Source: Candidatus Multivoradales bacterium
GTDB lineage: Bacteria; Acidobacteriota; Thermoanaerobaculia; Multivoradales; Multivoraceae
Direction of reading: 5' to 3'
Length of the DNA: 64,000 nucleotides
Assembly: GCA_965223325.1 (NCBI GenBank)
Contig: CBDCWI010000002.1
Span: 1,760,001-1,824,000, forward strand
Both the position numbers and the translations under genes were made by a program. The first letter of the stretch is position 1, and each line of letters begins with the position of its first letter. Shown one piece after another: positions 27,027-32,691 of this stretch. The notes beneath the pieces are model-generated. The model was not told the origin of the DNA. It did not search any database and was given only the letters and a program-made list of their open reading frames with translations.

Positions 27027-28451
27027 CTAGCCCGTTTCGGCTAGCTCCTTTTGAACCACCCCGTCGTCCTCGAAACCCTCGATGCCCCAGCCCAGGGTGC
27101 GCGGTTCGCCGTCGACCGTTGTTTCGAGCAGGACCTTGCGGCCCCACAGAGTATGGAGGTGCTCGAGGGCGTGGCGGGCGTACTCGATTTCGAGGTCGCG
27201 ACCGTCGTGGGCATGGCGCAGGAAAAGCGTGCGGGTGCCGCCCGCATCTGCGTCTTCGATGCGAATCACTGGGAACGAACCGAGCCCCACTTGAGAGAGC
27301 AAGGCCGTCTTGACGCTCTGCCAGCCGCCATCGTCGGCGACATTCTCAATCACCAGGTCGTCGCCCTTGGCGCCGTACTCGAACATGTCGAGGTCACGCA
27401 TCAGCTCCGGGCCCAGGAAGCGGCGCAGGAACGAGACGTCGCGGTCGACCTCGCGTACCTTGAAGATCTCGGCCATGGCATCCGGCGAATCGAGACCGCC
27501 GTTCTTCTCGACAATGTCGTGCCACACCTTGAACCCGAGGTAGTACGGGTTGATCTGACCCGGGATCGGCCGCAGCACCTGCGCGTGGTGCACCGAGAAC
27601 TCCAGGTGGAGATCGGCCGAGAGCTCGAGGCGGTTCATGATCCAGTGGTGCCAGAAACTCGCCCAGCCCTCGTTCATGATCTTGGTTTCGATCTGAGGCA
27701 GGAAGTACTCCGTGCGCTCGTGAACGATCGTCAGGATGTCGCGCTGCCAGTCCTCGAGGAAACGGTTGTTGTCGCGAATGAACAGCAGCACGTCCTCCTC
27801 CGGCTCGAGCGGTAGTCGCGTGTGGTCGTTCCCGGTCGGTTCGGGCTTCGGATGAATGCTGGCCCACTCGTCGTGCGGCACGTCGGCCTCTTCGGCGCGC
27901 GCAATCTGCTCCTCGGGATCGAGCTTGCGGAGTGCGAAGTTTCGCCGGCACTGGTAGGCGAGTGCCTGTGCCGCGTCGAGAATCTCCTCCACCCGATGGA
28001 TACCGATCGATGGATCTTCGATGTAGGAGCGCACCCGGTCGGCAGCGCTCTTGAAACGCGTCAACGTCAGCTCTGGCCGGGTGTGGTGGAAGGTGAAGTT
28101 GTTCTTGAAGAAGTCGTTGTGACCGTAGACGTGCGCGATGATGAGAACCTGTAGACACAGGGTGTTGTCCTTCATCAGGTAGGCGAGCGACGGGTTCGAG
28201 TTGATCACCAGCTCATACGGCAGCCCGCTGACGCCGAGCTCATAAAGCGTCTTCTGACGCTCGTAAGACTTGCCGTACGACCAGTGCGGGTAATGTGCCG
28301 GCATTCCCGAGTAGGCCATGTAGGCCAGCATCTGGTTGTGATCGCAGACCTCGAACTCCTGCGGAAAGCAGTCGAGCCCCGCTTCATCAACCAGCTGCAG
28401 AATGCGCTCGTCCCAACTCTCGAGATCGTCGAGGGTCCAGGCGGTGGTCAT
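27027..28451 (-). CDS. spoVR: SpoVR/YcgB family protein
   Basis: YPHWSYGKSY, YELVINSNP, AHVYGHNDFFKNN, PQIETKIMNEGWASFWH and NPYYLG motifs. ATGA overlap with the upstream gene. Confidence 0.93.
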   Translation of the reverse strand: MTTAWTLDDLESWDERILQLVDEAGLDCFPQEFEVCDHNQMLAYMAYSGMPAHYPHWSYGKSYERQKTLYELGVSGLPYELVINSNPSLAYLMKDNTLCLQVLIIAHVYGHNDFFKNNFTFHHTRPELTLTRFKSAADRVRSYIEDPSIGIHRVEEILDAAQALAYQCRRNFALRKLDPEEQIARAEEADVPHDEWASIHPKPEPTGNDHTRLPLEPEEDVLLFIRDNNRFLEDWQRDILTIVHERTEYFLPQIETKIMNEGWASFWHHWIMNRLELSADLHLEFSVHHAQVLRPIPGQINPYYLGFKVWHDIVEKNGGLDSPDAMAEIFKVREVDRDVSFLRRFLGPELMRDLDMFEYGAKGDDLVIENVADDGGWQSVKTALLSQVGLGSFPVIRIEDADAGGTRTLFLRHAHDGRDLEIEYARHALEHLHTLWGRKVLLETTVDGEPRTLGWGIEGFEDDGVVQKELAETG

Positions 28452-29683
28452 GCGGCCTCCTTCTCTGCCCCCAACAGGCGCTTGAGCGCCGGCCAGATGT
28501 CGTCTTTGCCGTTGATCTCGAGGGCGCGGAAGTTCGATGCGTCGAGCTTCTCCCACACCGAGAGCATCGAGCTAGCGTAGAACGAGGTAAAGGGGTGAGC
28601 GATCTTGCCTTTGATCTCGCCGTAGCCGAACAGGTTGCAGACCTCGCAGAGTTCCTTGGCCGCCGCTAGAGCTTTGTCGTTGTCGTGCCCGAAGTTGTCG
28701 CCGTCAGAGCAATGAAAGGCGTAGACGTTCCACATCGCCGGGTGGTAGCGATCGCGAATGATCTCGAGCGCCTTCTCGTAGCCCGACGAAATGCAGGTGC
28801 CACCCGACTCGCCCTTCGAGAAGAACTCCTCTTCGGTGACTTCGCGAGCGGTCGAATGGTGGGCAACGAACACCACCTCGACGTTCTGATAGCGCGAACG
28901 CACGAACTGGTAGAGCAGAAAGAAGAAGCTGCGCGCCAGGTACTTCTTCATCGTGTCCATCGACCCCGAGGTGTCCATAACGCAGATCACCACCGCGTTC
29001 GAGTGCGGGCGCTCCTCGGGTTGCAGGCGCTTGTAAGTCATGTCGTCCTTGTGGAACGGAAAGCGCTCTTCTTCTTCGGGCTCCGTGTCGGCGGGGGCCG
29101 GCAGCACACCTTCTTCGGCCATGCGGAACTTCCTGCGCTCTGCTGCCATCTTGCGGCGCAGCCGGTTCTTGACCGTGCGGCGCTTGTCGAGATGCACCCG
29201 GATGCCGGCACGTCGGAAGCCTTTGCGCTTGCGCTTTGCCTCGACGACGACATTGCGCAGGTTCTTGCGCTCGAGCTCGGGCAGTTCCAGGTCCTCGAAC
29301 ATCATCTCGATGAGCTCGGCGAGCGAGACCTCGGTCTCATAGTAGTCCTGGCCCGGATCGTTTCCAGCCGGTCCGATCCCCGGCTGAGGCTGTTGACCGT
29401 CACCCGCCTTACCGACCACCTGACCCTTCTGAGAATCACCGTTGCCGGTCGCGACCTTGTTGCCCTGGTTATTGCCGTAGACGAAGCGATACTCGCGGAT
29501 TCCGCGAATCGGCACCTTGACCATGCGATCAGCGCTCTTGCCGATGATCGACTCCTCAGAGAGAACATCGACCAGGTTGTCGCGAATCGCCTCGCGCACC
29601 TTCTCGCGATGACGCAGCCGATCCGAGGCGCTGCGATCAGAACGCAGGCCTTCGGATGAGCGGAAGGGCCGGAAGGTCGTCAC
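28448..29683 (-). CDS. yeaH: YeaH/YhbH (DUF444) vWA-like protein
   Basis: DRLRHREKV, IREYRFVY, MDTSGSM, ESGGTCISS and HCSDGDN motifs. Start at GTG 29683. Confidence 0.9.
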   Translation of the reverse strand: MTTFRPFRSSEGLRSDRSASDRLRHREKVREAIRDNLVDVLSEESIIGKSADRMVKVPIRGIREYRFVYGNNQGNKVATGNGDSQKGQVVGKAGDGQQPQPGIGPAGNDPGQDYYETEVSLAELIEMMFEDLELPELERKNLRNVVVEAKRKRKGFRRAGIRVHLDKRRTVKNRLRRKMAAERRKFRMAEEGVLPAPADTEPEEEERFPFHKDDMTYKRLQPEERPHSNAVVICVMDTSGSMDTMKKYLARSFFFLLYQFVRSRYQNVEVVFVAHHSTAREVTEEEFFSKGESGGTCISSGYEKALEIIRDRYHPAMWNVYAFHCSDGDNFGHDNDKALAAAKELCEVCNLFGYGEIKGKIAHPFTSFYASSMLSVWEKLDASNFRALEINGKDDIWPALKRLLGAEKEAA

Positions 29684-29719
29684 GAGAGCCCCCCAGGAAG
29701 GAGCCAGGGGTGAAGCCCC

Positions 29720-30754
29720 ACGGGACGACCTTCCCTCTTCGAGAAAGCGAGAGGGCGACCGTAGGCCCAAACCTGACCAACGCCCCTCTCCGAAAACGCA
29801 CCTGCCGAACAACGAGAGCGAAACGCCACGAGGTGCTGTCGTGGTGACGGCGAAACAAGGACGCTTTGCCGAAGCACTCGCTGAACAGCATCGATCAACG
29901 CCGAAAGCCTCCCAGGAACCGCACACCACGACGGCAAGTCAAACCGTCCCCCTTGGGGGACCGAGGGGGGAGAAGACGAGGACTGAAGTCGTGGTAACGA
30001 CCTCACCCAACCGCTAGACCGAATCTCCATGGGACAACCTTCCCCCATCGAGAAAGCACCTGCCGAACAACGAGAGCGAAACGCCACGAGGTGCTGTCGT
30101 GGTGACGGCGAAACAAGGACGCTTTGCCGAAGCACTCGCTGAACAGCATCGATCAACGCCGAAAGCCTCCCAGGAGCCGCACACCACGACGGCAAGTCAA
30201 ACCGTCCCCCTTGGGGGACCGAGGGGGGAGAATACGGGGCTTGGAGTCGTGGTAACAACAAGCCGAGCAAGCGAGAAGGAAGCTTCACGGCAAAACCCTT
30301 CCCTGCCCTGAGCGCGAAGCGGCCGCCGAACAACCACGGCTGCAAGCCCCCCGTCCCCCTTGGGGGACCGAGGGGGGAGAAGACGAGGACTGAAGTCGTG
30401 GTAACGACCTCACCCAACCGCTAGACCGAATCTCCATGGGACAACCTTCCCCCATCGAGAAAGCACCTGCCGAACAACGAGAGCGAAACGCCACGAGGTG
30501 CTGTCGTGGTGACGGCGAAACAAGGACGCATTGCCGAAGCACTCGCTGAACAGCATCGATCAACGCCGAAAGCCTCCCAGGAGCCGCACACCACGACGGC
30601 AAGTCAAACCGTCCCCCTTGGGGGACCGAGGGGGGAGAAGACGAGGACTGAAGTCGTGGTAACGACCTCACCCAACCGCTAGACCGAATCTCCATGGGAC
30701 AACCTTCCCCCATCGAGAAAGCGAAACGGTGGCCGCAAACCACGACTTCAGTCC
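29720..30754. repeat. Array of stem-loop units separated by a conserved 31-nt hairpin repeat (REP/BIME-like mosaic); includes 258-bp duplications
   Basis: CCGTCCCCCTTGGGGGACCGAGGGGGGAGAA occurs four times (~29944, 30202, 30351, 30609). Near-identical blocks start at 29798, 30056 and 30463. GTCGTGGT...ACCACGAC stems recur. Confidence 0.9.
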
Positions 30755-32691
30755 TTCCAGAGGTTGTTCGCCGCGTAGCGTAGAACCGTCTCCGCCGCGT
30801 CTTCGGCGTAGCCACGCTCCATCATCGCGGCGATCAGGTCGTCGTAGCGCTGACGCTGCTCGGCGTCGCGAGTGCGCGACTTGGTAACGATCCGGCTCAT
30901 GTCACGCACAGAGCTCATCAGTCGCTTCTCGATCGCGTCGCGCAAGGGCTCGTAAGACCTGAACGACACCGACTCGCCGCGACGCGCCGAGGCCCACAGG
31001 AAGGCCATGACCTCCTGGCGGAAGCCGTCGCACGCCGAACCGACGATCGCCAGCTGCTCTTCGATCGACTTGAGGAACTTCTCGTCGGGCTCGAGCTCTT
31101 CGCCGGTCGAGCCGTCCTTGACCAAGGTCTTGTTGACGTAGGCCTCGGTGTGGTCGAGGTAGCTCTGGAACAGGGCTTCTGCCTGTTCCTCGAACGAGTA
31201 GACGAAGGCGCGAGTGATCTCTTTCTCGAGGACCTCGAGGTAGACCTTGTGGATCGTGTCCTGGAGAAGCTCGAGGTAGTGCTTGCGGGTGTCGTCGGGC
31301 AGGTCGACTCGTTTCACCATGTTGATCAGCGCCTCGCGCACATTGATCGGGTGAATGCCGTTGGGCGAGTCTGAAAGGGCGTTGTCGACCGCCTTCATGA
31401 TGAAGCGCGTCGAAATCCCGTCCATGCCTTCGCGACGTGCATCTTCGCGCAGCTCGAGGGCCGAGAGCTTCGAGGTCTTGCCCTTCTCGATCACCTCTTC
31501 GCCGTTGTAGAGGCGCAGCTTGGTGAGCGGATCGCACTTGTTGGTGGGCTCGAGGCGAGTGAGAATCGCAAACATCGCCGCCAATTCGAGGGTGTGCGGC
31601 GCGATCGGCGCTCGGAAGTCGGACTTCTTGAGCAGCTTCTCGTAGATCTTCACCTCTTCGGTGAGGCGCAGGTTGTAGGGAACCTTCACCACTACGATGC
31701 GATCGAGAATCGCTTCGTTGGTGTGGTCACCCTTGAACTTCTGCCACTCCGACTCGTTCGAGTGCGCGATGATCACCGAATCAACGTACACCGTGCCGTG
31801 ACGTCCAGGAGCGGGAATGAACTTTTCCTGCGTCGCGGTGATCATGGTGTGGAGGTACTCGACCTCGTTCTTGAACACCTCGATGAACTCGACCATGCCG
31901 CGGTTGCCGACGTTGAAGGCACCGTTCAAGTCGAGCACTCGGGGGTCGTTCTCGGAGTAGGTGTCGAGCTTGGCGATGTCCTCTGAACCGATGAGCACCG
32001 AGGTGTCCTGGTTGTTCGGGTCGACCGGCGGAACAACACCGATTCCGCGGCGGCGATGGCTCGAGAACTCGACCGTCAGCACCGGCACCTCTTCGTAGCG
32101 TCCCTCGAACTCCTCGTCGAGGCGATGGCGACAGATCGGGCAGAGTTCACCCTCGATGCGCACGTCGAGCATTTCCTCGAACTGGGGCCGCAGGTGGGTG
32201 GGGATGAGATGGAGCGGTTCTTCAGCCATCGGGCAGCCTTCGATGGCATACACCGGCGGACATCCTTCGAGGCCCTTCTTGAGCTTGTCGACCAGCGAGC
32301 TCTTGCCCGCACCGACAGGGCCCATCATGTAGAGCACCTGGCGCGACTCCTCGCCCTGCAGCGAAGCCGAGTGCAGGTAGCGCACCAGCTGATCGAGAGT
32401 CTCTTCGATGCCGAAGAACTCCTTCGAAAAGAAGTCGTAGGAACGCAACGACCGGTCACCAACCACACGCCGAACGACGGGAGAGTCACTTTCTGTCAGG
32501 TCAGTGACGCCCTCCGACACCACCCGTTCATAGAGACGCGCATGAGCCAGCTTGGCGATCTTGGGGTCCGCGCGTACCTCATCGAGATACTCGAGGAAGG
32601 TTCCCCTCCAACTCTGCGACGCTCGCTCTTCCCGATCTTGTTCGATGATCTCGGCAAAGCTGTTCGCTTCTGGCGCCTCTGCTATGGACAT
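30748..32691 (-). CDS. yeaG: PrkA/YeaG family AAA+ serine protein kinase
   Basis: Walker A GPVGAGKS, plus CPMAEEPLHL, NNQDTSVLIG, GNRGMVEFIE, NEAILDR and EGMDGISTRF motifs. Confidence 0.95.
   Translation of the reverse strand: MSIAEAPEANSFAEIIEQDREERASQSWRGTFLEYLDEVRADPKIAKLAHARLYERVVSEGVTDLTESDSPVVRRVVGDRSLRSYDFFSKEFFGIEETLDQLVRYLHSASLQGEESRQVLYMMGPVGAGKSSLVDKLKKGLEGCPPVYAIEGCPMAEEPLHLIPTHLRPQFEEMLDVRIEGELCPICRHRLDEEFEGRYEEVPVLTVEFSSHRRRGIGVVPPVDPNNQDTSVLIGSEDIAKLDTYSENDPRVLDLNGAFNVGNRGMVEFIEVFKNEVEYLHTMITATQEKFIPAPGRHGTVYVDSVIIAHSNESEWQKFKGDHTNEAILDRIVVVKVPYNLRLTEEVKIYEKLLKKSDFRAPIAPHTLELAAMFAILTRLEPTNKCDPLTKLRLYNGEEVIEKGKTSKLSALELREDARREGMDGISTRFIMKAVDNALSDSPNGIHPINVREALINMVKRVDLPDDTRKHYLELLQDTIHKVYLEVLEKEITRAFVYSFEEQAEALFQSYLDHTEAYVNKTLVKDGSTGEELEPDEKFLKSIEEQLAIVGSACDGFRQEVMAFLWASARRGESVSFRSYEPLRDAIEKRLMSSVRDMSRIVTKSRTRDAEQRQRYDDLIAAMMERGYAEDAAETVLRYAANNLWKD

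What the first reader, a model, noticed from the sequence alone, without database searches (positions are those of the whole stretch)
29720..30754. Array inside the yeaG-yeaH operon: constant 31-nt hairpin repeat alternating with stem-loop units of fixed loop length and variable sequence
Seen: the repeat CCGTCCCCCTTGGGGGACCGAGGGGGGAGAA (hairpin GTCCCCC-TT-GGGGGAC) occurs four times. Between copies lie three unit types closed by GTCGTGGT...ACCACG(A/G)C. Their loops are 79 nt (29846-29924), 79 nt (30254-30332) and 78 nt (30661-30738), colinear but heavily substituted. The outer stems differ yet still pair (GCTGTCGTGGTG/CACCACGACGGC; GGGGCTTGGAGTCGTGGT/ACCACGGCTGCAAGCCCC; GGACTGAAGTCGTGGT/ACCACGACTTCAGTCC), which looks like compensatory change. 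Recent 258-bp duplications are superimposed. Known: yeaG and yeaH are normally close together, and REP doublets (REPINs) show fixed spacing. Inference: a repeat/variable-cassette array under selection for structure and length, either a new REPIN-like mobile family or a processed ncRNA array. It is not a CRISPR and no cas or RAYT gene lies in this window.
Basis: partly seen in the sequence, partly recalled or inferred. Interest (0 to 1): 0.8.

Follow-up and report, generated by a model that had tools for sequence, protein, structure and literature searches.

The report
Stop-codon-anchored palindromic repeat array
The 1-kb filler between the prkA (yeaG) and yeaH genes is a locally duplicated cluster of a hairpin-forming repeat that this acidobacterium carries behind the stop codons of some fifty unrelated genes: an undescribed family of a known kind of small repeat, not a special RNA array.

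Summary
The 31-mer occurs four times, three stem-loop unit types are present with loops of 79, 79 and 78 nt, and 258-bp duplications overlie them.

The array is not a locus-specific device. Its stem-loop units belong to a genome-wide family: a covariance model finds 139 units, and 130 full-length ones fall into 54 loci. All are oriented with the upstream gene.

- **Anatomy:** each locus starts at a stop codon (TAG in 36 of 45; exactly 7 nt before CGTGG in 34 of 45). A perfect helix of about 18 bp follows. Its inner CGTGGT/ACCACG is conserved and its outer 11-12 bp vary but stay complementary. The helix encloses a G/T-rich, A-poor interior of 73-82 nt.
- **Arrays:** only the gene-proximal unit keeps an intact helix.
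- **The 31-mer:** it is a local form of a poly-C hairpin linker seen at about 10 loci.
- **Distribution:** the same-genus relative has a 150-nt prkA-yeaH spacer without the element. Shorter versions occur in five other genera of the family.
- **Mobilising enzyme:** none found. No Y1 transposase link appeared.

Closest known are GTAG-REP/BIME and REPIN elements. The scan has noted similar stop-anchored repeats in other Acidobacteria.

The parts
30748..32691 (-). prkA/yeaG gene (647 aa). Its TGA stop (30748-30750) lies inside the 5' arm of the first hairpin.
   Evidence: Pfam AAA_PrkA 3.3e-147 and PrkA 4.8e-77. C-terminus ...NNLWKD-TGA is shared with the same-genus ortholog.
30630..30757 (-). 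Unit C, the gene-proximal complete unit. The 17-bp perfect helix AGGACTGAAGTCGTGGT/ACCACGACTTCAGTCCT encloses 78 nt. The 5' arm contains the last 5 coding bases and the stop codon of prkA.
   Evidence: CM R1 90.3 bits; inverted repeat I3, 100% over 17 nt; MFE -66 kcal/mol.
30609..30639 (-). 31-mer linker, copy 1 (on the RNA strand TTCTCCCCCCTCGGTCCCCCAAGGGGGACGG, small hairpin GTCCCCC-AA-GGGGGAC).
30499..30601 (-). Unit B, copy 1 (GCCGTCGTGGTG...CACCACGACAGC on the RNA strand), a divergent family member.
   Evidence: CM R1 37.1 bits, model positions 8-110.
30372..30482 (-). Unit C', a truncated copy of C without a 5' arm. It keeps the 3' arm complementary to the prkA end.
   Evidence: CM R1 27.3 bits; I2.
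30351..30381 (-). 31-mer linker, copy 2.
30223..30351 (-). Unit D (GGGGCTTGCAGCCGTGGTT...ACCACGACTCCAAGCCCC), a complete unit with its own complementary arms.
   Evidence: CM R1 57.1 bits.
30202..30232 (-). 31-mer linker, copy 3.
30092..30194 (-). Unit B, copy 2.
   Evidence: CM R1 36.7 bits.
29965..30075 (-). Unit C', second truncated copy.
   Evidence: CM R1 27.3 bits; I1.
29944..29974 (-). 31-mer linker, copy 4.
29834..29936 (-). Unit B, copy 3.
   Evidence: CM R1 34 bits.
29683..29833 (-). Degenerate remnant, 77% like the C'/B repeat, running up to the yeaH start.
   Evidence: D1 family copy 29686-29985 at 77%.
28448..29682 (-). yeaH (DUF444) gene, with probable GTG start at 29682-29680. 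The mechanical ORF runs 83 codons further into the array.
   Evidence: Pfam DUF444 6.7e-120 from residue 97 of the long ORF; translation; G001 ortholog starts MGTIFRPYSSS.
27027..28556 (-). spoVR-like gene, third gene of the operon.
   Evidence: Pfam SpoVR 4.6e-134.

Best explanation
The prkA-yeaH spacer holds an insertion of a dispersed, lineage-specific palindromic repeat element of the REP/REPIN kind, later enlarged on the spot by tandem duplication. This part is shown. The family's unit has four parts: a stop codon; a perfect closing helix of about 18 bp with a variable outer 11-12 bp and a conserved CGTGGT/ACCACG top; a G/T-rich, A-poor interior of about 80 nt; and a linker and tail. It always sits in the sense orientation directly behind a gene.

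How it works is inferred. The element spreads or is copied as DNA, arms included. It survives only where it does no harm, which is flush against a stop codon, and it often supplies that stop codon. The two arms are kept perfectly complementary at the DNA level, either by copying between arms or by a need for a hairpin in single-stranded DNA. On the mRNA the gene-proximal unit forms a very stable 3' or intercistronic hairpin (-66 kcal/mol here). That hairpin probably protects the upstream prkA message and lowers or uncouples read-through into yeaH-spoVR, as REP/BIME hairpins do in E. coli operons (recalled, not tested here).
For: Family membership:
- CM R1 finds 139 units of 150 candidates scored, and 130 full-length ones fall into 54 loci. 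All window hits are on the minus strand.

Gene-end anchoring:
- 61 of 67 regex-defined copies have a same-strand upstream gene. In 45 of 67 the stop lies within 20 nt, and in 34 of those 45 it lies exactly 7 nt before CGTGG.
- Stops are TAG 36, TGA 7 and TAA 2 of 45, against TAG at 41% of 5808 crude ORFs genome-wide.
- Host genes are unrelated (BamA, IMPDH, ArgG, RibBA, AsnRS, TonB receptors and others; 40 of the 45 scanned).

Helix:
- 97.9% of 679 cells are paired against 68.3% in shuffles. 191 cells changed on both sides against 46, with 0 of 500 shuffles as high. Slid controls pair at 30-49%.
- Without conditioning on flanks, 32 of 73 CGTGGTT-N-ACCACG pairs have at most 1 mismatch in 11-nt flanks, against 0 of 73 when slid.
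- The outer stem is 11-12 nt in 34 of 45 copies.

DNA-level signature:
- The helix holds only 3 G-U cells against about 8 A-C/C-A cells.
- Arms travel with the element: three unrelated genes carry identical arms TAGCGAGGGG with similar short loops.

Insertion and local amplification:
- The same-genus G001 has the same prkA end and a 150-nt spacer without the element.
- The CM gave 0 hits in 100 other prkA loci.
- Spacers elsewhere have a median of 43 nt.
- Within-array identity is 98-100%, against 61% mean column identity between loci.

Published parallels:
- REPINs show conserved length, common compensatory changes and tandem clusters that include flanks (PMC3116915, passages read).
Against: - No mobilising enzyme was identified. 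The genome has 28 Y1_Tnp matches, but only 1 lies within 9 kb of a unit. The flanks (1.5 kb each side) of 14 representative loci share no meaningful similarity with the elements, giving 3 short hits.
- No transposition intermediates, empty sites in close strains or target duplications could be shown.
- The conserved part is inside the helix and the termini vary. This is the reverse of REPs, REPINs and MITEs.
- The window copy's 3' arm complements native prkA codons (AGGAC-TGA), so that arm was not simply carried in.
- In arrays only the first unit keeps a perfect helix: 48 of 54 first units have at most 1 mismatch, against 5 of 76 internal units. This could mean selection for a function at the stop codon.
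- The sense strand folds better than the antisense in 64 of 67 copies, which is compatible with an RNA role.
- The seed set was chosen for flank pairing over 8 nt, so part of the pairing statistic is built in. One search is the unconditioned check.
- Nothing here measures transcription, termination or RNA stability.
Confidence: 0.62

Rival explanations
1. A dedicated cis-acting RNA device coupled to translation termination. The stop codon sits in the foot of an 18-bp helix, so a terminating ribosome must melt the variable lower stem and is left facing the conserved 7-bp top. The hairpin would then set ribosome release or stalling, mRNA decay, RNase III-type cleavage or read-through into the next gene. 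On this reading the element is kept by selection for that role, not as selfish DNA.
For: - Fixed register of stop codon and helix: 34 of 45 at exactly 7 nt.
- Only the gene-proximal unit keeps a perfect helix, 48 of 54 against 5 of 76.
- The window copy's 3' arm matches native coding bases, so the helix was rebuilt at this site.
- Always in sense orientation.
- The sense-strand interior has lower folding energy, -27.6 against -15.8 kcal/mol.
- The interior is A-poor, so it has few stops.
- Recalled, not read here: REPs within about 15 nt of a stop codon stall ribosomes in E. coli (Liang, Rudd and Deutscher 2015).
Against: - Wobble pairs are almost absent from the helix, 3 G-U of 679 cells against about 8 A-C. 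RNA-level selection would tolerate G-U.
- The interior is no more structured than dinucleotide shuffles, mean z -0.49 on both strands.
- Host genes share no function.
- The same-genus relative lacks the family, 0 hits, and orthologous genes do without it.
- There is no U-tract, and terminator-like sites are not above shuffles, 4 against 3.0 ± 2.2.
Confidence: 0.2
2. A true REPIN or TIR-repeat system mobilised by one of the genome's HUH-Y1 (RAYT/TIRYT-type) transposases, which would recognise the conserved CGTGGT/ACCACG hairpin top in single-stranded DNA.
For: - 28 PF01797 matches in the genome.
- Acidobacterial TIRYT genes and TIR repeat families are described, with the motif GGGGWSAS near such genes (PMC3733652, section 16). 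The linkers here contain GGGGGGAGAA or GGGTGAC-like strings on the antisense strand.
- Some Y1 genes have an upstream small hairpin GTCGTGGCG...CGCCACCGAC with a similar stem sequence.
- The hairpin is kept with Watson-Crick pairs, as expected for ssDNA recognition.
Against: - No Y1 gene is flanked by the units. 27 of 28 lie more than 9 kb from any unit.
- BLAST of 45 element heads against 14 Y1 loci gives 3 short scattered hits.
- The Y1 genes are multicopy IS-like units with their own identical flanks, unlike single-copy RAYTs.
- The similarity of the small hairpin is a 10-nt string and was not tested statistically.
Confidence: 0.1
3. A processed non-coding RNA array or CRISPR-like repeat-spacer locus, or a translated repeat.
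For: - A constant 31-mer alternates with longer segments.
- Long open frames cross the array on the sense strand, for example 29680-30417 at 245 aa.
Against: - The segments between 31-mers are themselves repeats of a dispersed family.
- No Rfam family matches at E up to 1 on the array or on two other arrays.
- Array periods are not multiples of three across loci: 258 here, and 260 and about 231 elsewhere. Interiors vary in length from 73 to 82 nt.
- The open frames follow from 8.7% A on the sense strand.
Confidence: 0.03

Closest known systems
GTAG-tagged REP / BIME elements (Di Nocera, De Gregorio and Rocco 2013, PMC3733652; passages and section 16 read)
   Same: Extragenic palindromes in high copy just behind genes. 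Their TAG end often supplies the stop codon of the flanking ORF. They occur as inverted dimers 20-100 bp apart and as clusters repeated in tandem together with flanking DNA. Acidobacteria carry related Y1 transposase genes.
   Different: Here TAG is base-paired inside the helix, not an unpaired tag: CTAG 24, GTAG 10 and TTAG 2 of 36. The single arms are not palindromes themselves. The conserved sequence is internal and the termini vary. The units are 110-130 nt plus a tail of about 140 nt. No Y1 gene is flanked by them.
REPINs (Bertels and Rainey 2011, PMC3116915; abstract and passages read)
   Same: A long hairpin made of two inverted ends and a spacer whose length and pairing, not its sequence, are kept. 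Compensatory changes are common. Ordered tandem clusters include flanks and reach over 700 bp.
   Different: REPIN ends are invariant 16-mers and the middle varies, whereas here the outer 11-12 bp vary and the inner 6-7 bp are fixed. The interior is not a hairpin beyond what its composition gives. The fixed register to stop codons is not a REPIN feature. No cognate RAYT was found.
MITEs with TA or CTAG targets (Correia elements; IS630/Tc1-derived MITEs) - recalled, not read here
   Same: Terminal inverted repeats, small size, intergenic position, co-transcription with neighbours, and possible preference for the rare palindrome CTAG (observed/expected 0.22 in this genome).
   Different: MITE terminal repeats are conserved because a transposase reads them, and their two ends need not stay complementary. 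No direct target duplication could be defined. The type-2 copies, the window's included, have no TA at their ends. No parent IS was identified.
Integron attC sites - recalled
   Same: An imperfect palindrome directly behind an ORF, conserved in structure more than in sequence, and acting as folded single-stranded DNA.
   Different: There are no R''/R' core sites (RYYYAAC/GTTRRRY) and no cassette arrays or integrase context. The loci are scattered behind core genes.
Earlier notes of this scan on stop-anchored repeats in Acidobacteria (e1-779963 in this genome; e1-2170692, e1-2258712 and e1-1501245 in others) - AI notes, leads only
   Same: Hairpin repeats flush with TAG or TGA stop codons, in sense orientation, dozens per genome.
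   Different: Whether these are the same sequence family was not tested, apart from e1-779963. Its gyrB-gyrA hairpin is a minimal, loop-less member with the same poly-C linker.

Membership tests
REP / BIME (GTAG- or CGTC-tagged) | Short (20-40 bp) imperfect palindrome in many extragenic copies | tested here: inconclusive
   Many extragenic copies: yes, 54 loci. Only 2 copies have the short form, C1:1559021 and C2:3512412. The rest carry an interior of 45-90 nt.
REP / BIME (GTAG- or CGTC-tagged) | Unpaired GTAG or CGTC tetranucleotide at one end | tested here: not met
   TAG is present in 36 of 45 copies but is paired with CTA on the other arm. The preceding base is G in 10 of 36.
REP / BIME and REPIN | A RAYT (Y1 transposase) gene flanked by the same repeats | tested here: not met
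   There are 28 PF01797 matches. 27 lie more than 9 kb from any unit. 14 representative loci of the 28 share no real similarity with the elements.
REPIN | Two inverted conserved ends separated by a spacer, together forming a hairpin, with compensatory changes | tested here: inconclusive
   Hairpin and compensatory changes are met. The conserved part is the inner 6-7 bp and the outer ends vary, and the interior does not pair beyond chance.
REPIN / REP clusters | Tandem clusters of near-identical units including flanks | tested here: met
   27 of 54 loci are arrays of 2-7 units. The window array has spacings of 258 and 407 nt at 98-100% identity.
MITE | Conserved terminal inverted repeats, a direct target-site duplication and a related autonomous IS | tested here: inconclusive
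   Inverted arms are present, but their outer 11-12 bp differ between loci. The ends NTAG...CTAN' are palindromic, so a TA or CTAG duplication cannot be told from pairing. A parent IS was not searched for systematically.
CRISPR array | Short direct repeats separated by unique spacers of similar length, with cas genes | tested here: not met
   The stretches between 31-mers are themselves repeated here and across the genome. Spacing alternates between 149 and 258 nt. cas genes were not searched for.
Intrinsic (Rho-independent) terminator | GC-rich hairpin followed at once by a U-tract | tested here: not met
   No T-run follows the large hairpin. The small 31-mer hairpin is followed by GGTTTGACTT. 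The scan gave 4 sites against 3.0 ± 2.2 in shuffles.
Any Rfam 15 family | Covariance-model match | tested here: not met
   No relevant match at E up to 1 on window 29000-31500 or on two other arrays. The only hits were a weak snoRNA-like chance match and group II introns.

The most novel reading that the evidence does not exclude
The closing helix is not merely inherited but actively rebuilt to a set length of about 18 bp from whatever lies at the gene end. In the window copy the 3' arm is the exact reverse complement of the native last five coding bases and TGA of prkA. The AsnRS copy likewise pairs with the native CG-TGA. Yet other copies carry identical arms to unrelated genes. Taken with the near absence of G-U pairs and the intact helix only in the stop-proximal unit, this would point to one of two things. 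One is an undescribed hairpin-templated, palindrome-making insertion or repair mechanism. The other is a translation-termination-coupled RNA device in which the ribosome at the stop codon opens the variable stem and meets the conserved 7-bp top.
Probability: 0.12. Interest if true: 0.75.

Novelty: new member of a known kind. Interest (0 to 1): 0.4.

Why it matters
For the operon, it explains an odd 1-kb gap in the otherwise compact prkA-yeaH-spoVR stress operon as repeat-element filler, not as a regulatory invention. It also predicts that prkA and yeaH expression may be uncoupled in this organism.

More widely, the family adds to repeated sightings in this scan of stop-codon-anchored palindromic repeats in Acidobacteria. 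It has unusually clean features: a fixed register to the stop codon, a variable but perfectly paired lower stem, a conserved top, and a tail used as a homing site by a group II intron. These make it a good system for asking how such repeats choose gene ends and keep their arms matched. That question is still open for REP-like elements outside Proteobacteria.

Tried and rejected
- **Rfam:** searches of the array and of two other arrays gave nothing relevant.
- **Other species:** a composite pattern (3' arm plus linker plus tail) scanned over 185,579 species' genomes gave 4 single, chance-like hits. The own genome may be left out of that collection.
- **Close empty sites:** PrkA relatives in named genomes and in metagenomes reach only 76-78% identity, so no closely related empty site was available.
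- **Expression:** no RNA holder was listed for the stretch. Contigs of four DNA runs break at the array edges (29827 and 30693) and show no alternative joints, so they say nothing on copy-number variation.
- **G001 orthologs as empty sites:** IMPDH, RibBA, ArgG and AsnRS were compared. The stop codon and following bases differ for IMPDH (TAG kept, next 7 nt different), RibBA (TGA against TAG) and ArgG (8 codons longer, TGA). The genomes are too far apart (70-80% protein identity) to align non-coding DNA.
- **Interior structure:** interiors are not more stable than dinucleotide shuffles, mean z -0.49. The first script for this failed on a regex and was rewritten.
- **Y1 transposase link:** tested and not found.
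- **Rho-loading idea:** a C-rich antisense strand fits type-1 units (antisense C 40.5%, G 21.7%). The window array shows little GC skew and mainly an A/T skew, so the idea was dropped as a general account.
- **Coding reading:** rejected, because periods are not multiples of 3, lengths vary, and the open frames follow from the low A content.
- **CTAG-targeting idea:** CTAG is rare (observed/expected 0.22) and 896 of 4857 sites overlap called stops. It could explain the 24 CTAG copies, but not the GTAG, TTAG, TGA or window copies.
Full report
**What is in the window**

The region 29683-30747 is the spacer between two minus-strand genes. The ORF 30748-32691 is PrkA/YeaG (AAA_PrkA 3.3e-147, PrkA 4.8e-77). 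The ORF ending at 28448 is DUF444/YeaH, and SpoVR follows. The mechanical yeaH ORF runs into the array. The Pfam match starts at its residue 97, and the same-genus ortholog starts MGTIFRPYSS. The real start is therefore most likely the GTG at 29682.

The spacer is thus about 1065 nt. In 62 other genomes with adjacent prkA and yeaH the projected spacer has a median of about 43 nt, and 59 of 62 are under 200 nt.

**Check of the observation**

- The 31-mer occurs at 29944, 30202, 30351 and 30609 and nowhere else in the 6.69-Mb genome at up to 3 mismatches.
- The arms pair over 13-17 nt at 92-100%.
- Duplications of 258 and 407 nt at 98-100% identity overlie everything.

Read in the direction of transcription (minus strand), the order is:

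prkA stop | unit C | 31-mer | unit B | truncated C' | 31-mer | unit D | 31-mer | B | C' | 31-mer | B | degenerate remnant | yeaH.

Only one 5' arm of type C exists, at the prkA stop codon. Three copies of its 3' arm lie downstream (I1-I3).

**The units belong to a genome-wide family**

The core motif occurs at many other places. A regex census that required complementary 8-nt flanks gave 86 hits, which reduced to 67 oriented copies.

I aligned 40 gene-proximal copies (A1) and built covariance model R1. It finds 139 units among the 150 candidates scored in the own genome, so the count is a lower bound. I dropped 8 partial hits and one 54-nt hit. The remaining 130 fall into 54 loci: 27 single units and 27 arrays of 2-7 units.

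All seven window hits lie on the minus strand: C at 90.3 bits, D at 57.1, three B units at 34-37, and two C' at 27.3.

**Anatomy of the family (sense strand)**

*Position.* The element starts at the end of a gene.
- 61 of 67 copies have their upstream neighbour on the same strand.
- In 45 of 67 that gene's stop lies within 20 nt of the core. In 34 of those 45 it lies exactly 7 nt before CGTGG. The other 22 are mostly internal array copies (gene calls are my own crude GC3-filtered ORFs).

*Stop codon.* It is TAG in 36, TGA in 7 and TAA in 2 of 45. TAG makes up 41% of 5808 crude ORFs genome-wide.

*Closing helix.* There are 17 predicted pairs, and 14 show changes on both sides.
- 97.9% of 679 cells are paired, against 68.3% in shuffles.
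- 191 doubly changed cells are seen against 46, with 0 of 500 shuffles as high.
- Slid controls pair at 30-49%.
- The inner CGTGGT/ACCACG is nearly invariant, while the outer part varies.
- The outer part is 11-12 nt long in 34 of 45 copies and usually pairs 1-2 nt beyond the stop codon.
- The seeds were picked for flank pairing, so I repeated the count without that condition. Of 73 CGTGGTT-N(53-103)-ACCACG occurrences, 32 have at most 1 mismatch in their 11-nt flanks, against 0 of 73 when the 3' flank is slid by 3.

*Interior.*
- It is 73-82 nt long in all 40 aligned copies.
- Sense-strand composition is G 40.5%, T 29.1%, C 21.7% and A 8.7%.
- The interior is no more stable than dinucleotide shuffles (mean z -0.49 on either strand). 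The sense strand simply folds more strongly because of its composition, -27.6 against -15.8 kcal/mol. Whole units show the same, -55.3 against -44.1, with the sense strand better in 64 of 67.

*Linker and tail.*
- Most loci have GTCACYYTTGCGGCGCAAGCGGTCCG... continuing for about 140 nt. BLAST finds this tail 122 times in 44 loci.
- About 10 loci, the window among them, instead have GTCTTCTCCCCCC followed by a small C/G hairpin.

**Who carries it**

The 40 host genes scanned of the 45 are unrelated. They include BamA, an autotransporter, Asn/Asp-tRNA synthetase, IMPDH, argininosuccinate synthase, RibBA, TonB-dependent receptors, PilY1 and arginase.

Distribution by the CM:
- Among relatives, 7 of 24 other genomes of the same family match at E up to 1e-3, and 0 of 16 genomes of other families of the order.
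- In a wider family sample, 5 of 56 match at E up to 1e-4. That covers five of the twelve other genera, with 0 of 42 in the largest genus and 0 in the one same-genus genome. Only 60-84 candidates per genome were scored, so this means 'not found', not 'absent'.

The relatives' copies are shorter (about 94 nt, or 54-nt plain palindromes) but have the same plan. An example is ...TAG-CGGGCT-CGTGGT...ACCACG-AGCCCG-CTAG-CCGATCAC..., again with the upstream ORF's stop at the foot.

Two such minimal palindromes also exist in this genome. The interior of about 80 nt therefore looks like an addition at the apex of a simpler palindrome, or the short forms are deletions.

**The array is an insertion, not part of the operon**

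- The same-genus genome (PrkA 78% identical) has the same C-terminus ...NNLWKD-TGA, followed by about 150 nt and yeaH, with no unit.
- R1 finds nothing at E up to 0.1 in 100 prkA loci from other genomes and metagenomes.

**DNA or RNA?**

Two observations point to pairing kept at the DNA level, or on both strands:
- The closing helix has 3 G-U cells against about 8 A-C/C-A cells among 679. MFE folds put 29% G-U pairs in the interior but 2.7% in the first 19 nt.
- Arms can travel with the element. Three unrelated genes carry the identical arms TAGCGAGGGG with related short loops. Close pairs of copies differ by one compensated change, TTATCCC/GGGATAA against TGATCCC/GGGATCA.

Three observations leave room for a function at the stop codon:
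- In arrays only the first unit has a good helix. It has at most 1 mismatch of 17 in 48 of 54 first units, against 5 of 76 internal units.
- The window copy's 3' arm complements AGGAC-TGA, which are native prkA bases shared with the relative.
- The AsnRS copy's arm complements the native CG-TGA.

The arms are therefore sometimes carried in and sometimes re-made at the site. I could not resolve how. Copying between arms (quasi-palindrome correction, recalled from the E. coli literature) or hairpin-templated synthesis would fit, but this is inference.

**Mobilising enzyme**

The genome has 28 matches to the Y1 transposase family PF01797. They form several multicopy groups with their own conserved flanks.
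- 27 of 28 lie more than 9 kb from any unit.
- BLAST of 45 element heads against 14 representative Y1 loci with 1.5-kb flanks gave only 3 short hits.

So the defining REPIN/REPtron arrangement is not met.

**What is known**

- Di Nocera et al. (PMC3733652; passages and section 16 read) report that GTAG REP termini often provide the TAG stop of flanking ORFs. They also report that REPs form inverted dimers 20-100 bp apart and clusters repeated in tandem with flanks, and that Acidobacteria have a distinct group of TIR-associated Y1 transposases.
- Bertels and Rainey (PMC3116915; passages read) describe for REPINs a conserved length, frequent compensatory changes, and tandem clusters that include flanks.

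Several things differ here:
- The conserved part is internal and the ends vary.
- TAG is paired.
- The register to the stop codon is fixed.
- The interior is long and compositionally skewed.
- There is a long tail.
- No Y1 gene is associated.

I searched the paper library three times and found no description of this family. Supplements were not seen, and subscription journals are not covered. The scan's own notes list similar stop-anchored repeats in other Acidobacteria. These are unchecked leads.

**Likely working**

*Shown.* This is a dispersed repeat, inserted behind prkA and amplified on the spot. It is always in the sense orientation, and its first unit forms a 17-bp perfect helix that includes the stop codon.

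*Inferred.*
- It persists because a position flush with a stop codon is harmless.
- On the mRNA the -66 kcal/mol hairpin would block 3' exonucleases. It may reduce read-through to yeaH-spoVR, as REP hairpins do in E. coli operons (recalled).
- The low A content keeps the sense strand rich in G-U pairing potential and poor in stop codons.

No expression data exist. No RNA holder was listed, and the DNA contigs were uninformative.

**Verdict**

The main open point is how the arms stay matched and why the stop-proximal helix alone is kept intact.

Noticed in passing
L198:227-2020 (G000:C2:698906-700699); also L197:560-778 and L006:89-307: A 1.9-kb group II intron (Rfam RF02005 at 180.6 bits; 521-aa ORF with RVT_1 at 9e-39) has 14 copies in the genome. 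12 lie within 2.3 kb of a repeat unit, inserted in the unit's tail after TTGCGGCG. In 11 of those 12 the intron is on the strand opposite to the unit. The twelfth lies between two converging arrays. The repeat's tail thus serves as the intron's homing site.
   Followed up: partly
G000:C1:2126128-2143849 and G000:C2:4455510-4486968 (outside the window): There are 28 matches to the Y1 transposase family PF01797 in open frames of about 300-410 aa. Many are clustered near one end of each contig, in groups with identical flanks. Upstream motifs include CAGTCGGGGGGACTTTCCC and a small hairpin GTCGTGGCG...CGCCACCGAC. No link to the repeat family was found.
   Followed up: partly
G000:C1:1559021-1559035 and G000:C2:3512412-3512426 (outside the window): Two minimal, nearly loop-less members of the family have 12-bp perfect outer stems around CGTGGT-TTT-ACCACG or TGTGGT-GAA-ACCACA. 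They have the same linkers as the long units.
   Followed up: partly
window 29680-30815, minus strand: The sense strand of the array is very poor in A (AT skew +0.36 to +0.45 on the plus strand). As a result, long open frames cross non-coding repeat DNA: 245 aa at 29680-30417, 176 aa at 30285-30815, and 83 extra codons on yeaH. Gene callers may over-extend yeaH or call false genes here.
   Followed up: partly
whole genome G000: CTAG is strongly depleted (4857 sites, observed/expected 0.22) and TTAA even more so (346 sites, 0.05). GATC is enriched at 2.26. 896 CTAG sites overlap a called stop codon.
   Followed up: no
G000:C1:819929-824175 (L005, L006): Two converging genes (a 125-aa protein and an amidase) each carry an array of 4-5 related units, facing each other with a group II intron between. 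Their arms differ by one compensated change, GTAGCGATGGT against GTTGCGATGGT.
   Followed up: no
L196:2040-2130 (G001) versus G000:C2:595128-595140: Argininosuccinate synthase is 8 residues shorter in this genome than in the same-genus relative (...RVITER-TAG against ...RVIVREHERREGE-TGA). This suggests the repeat element truncated the gene end and supplied the stop codon.
   Followed up: partly
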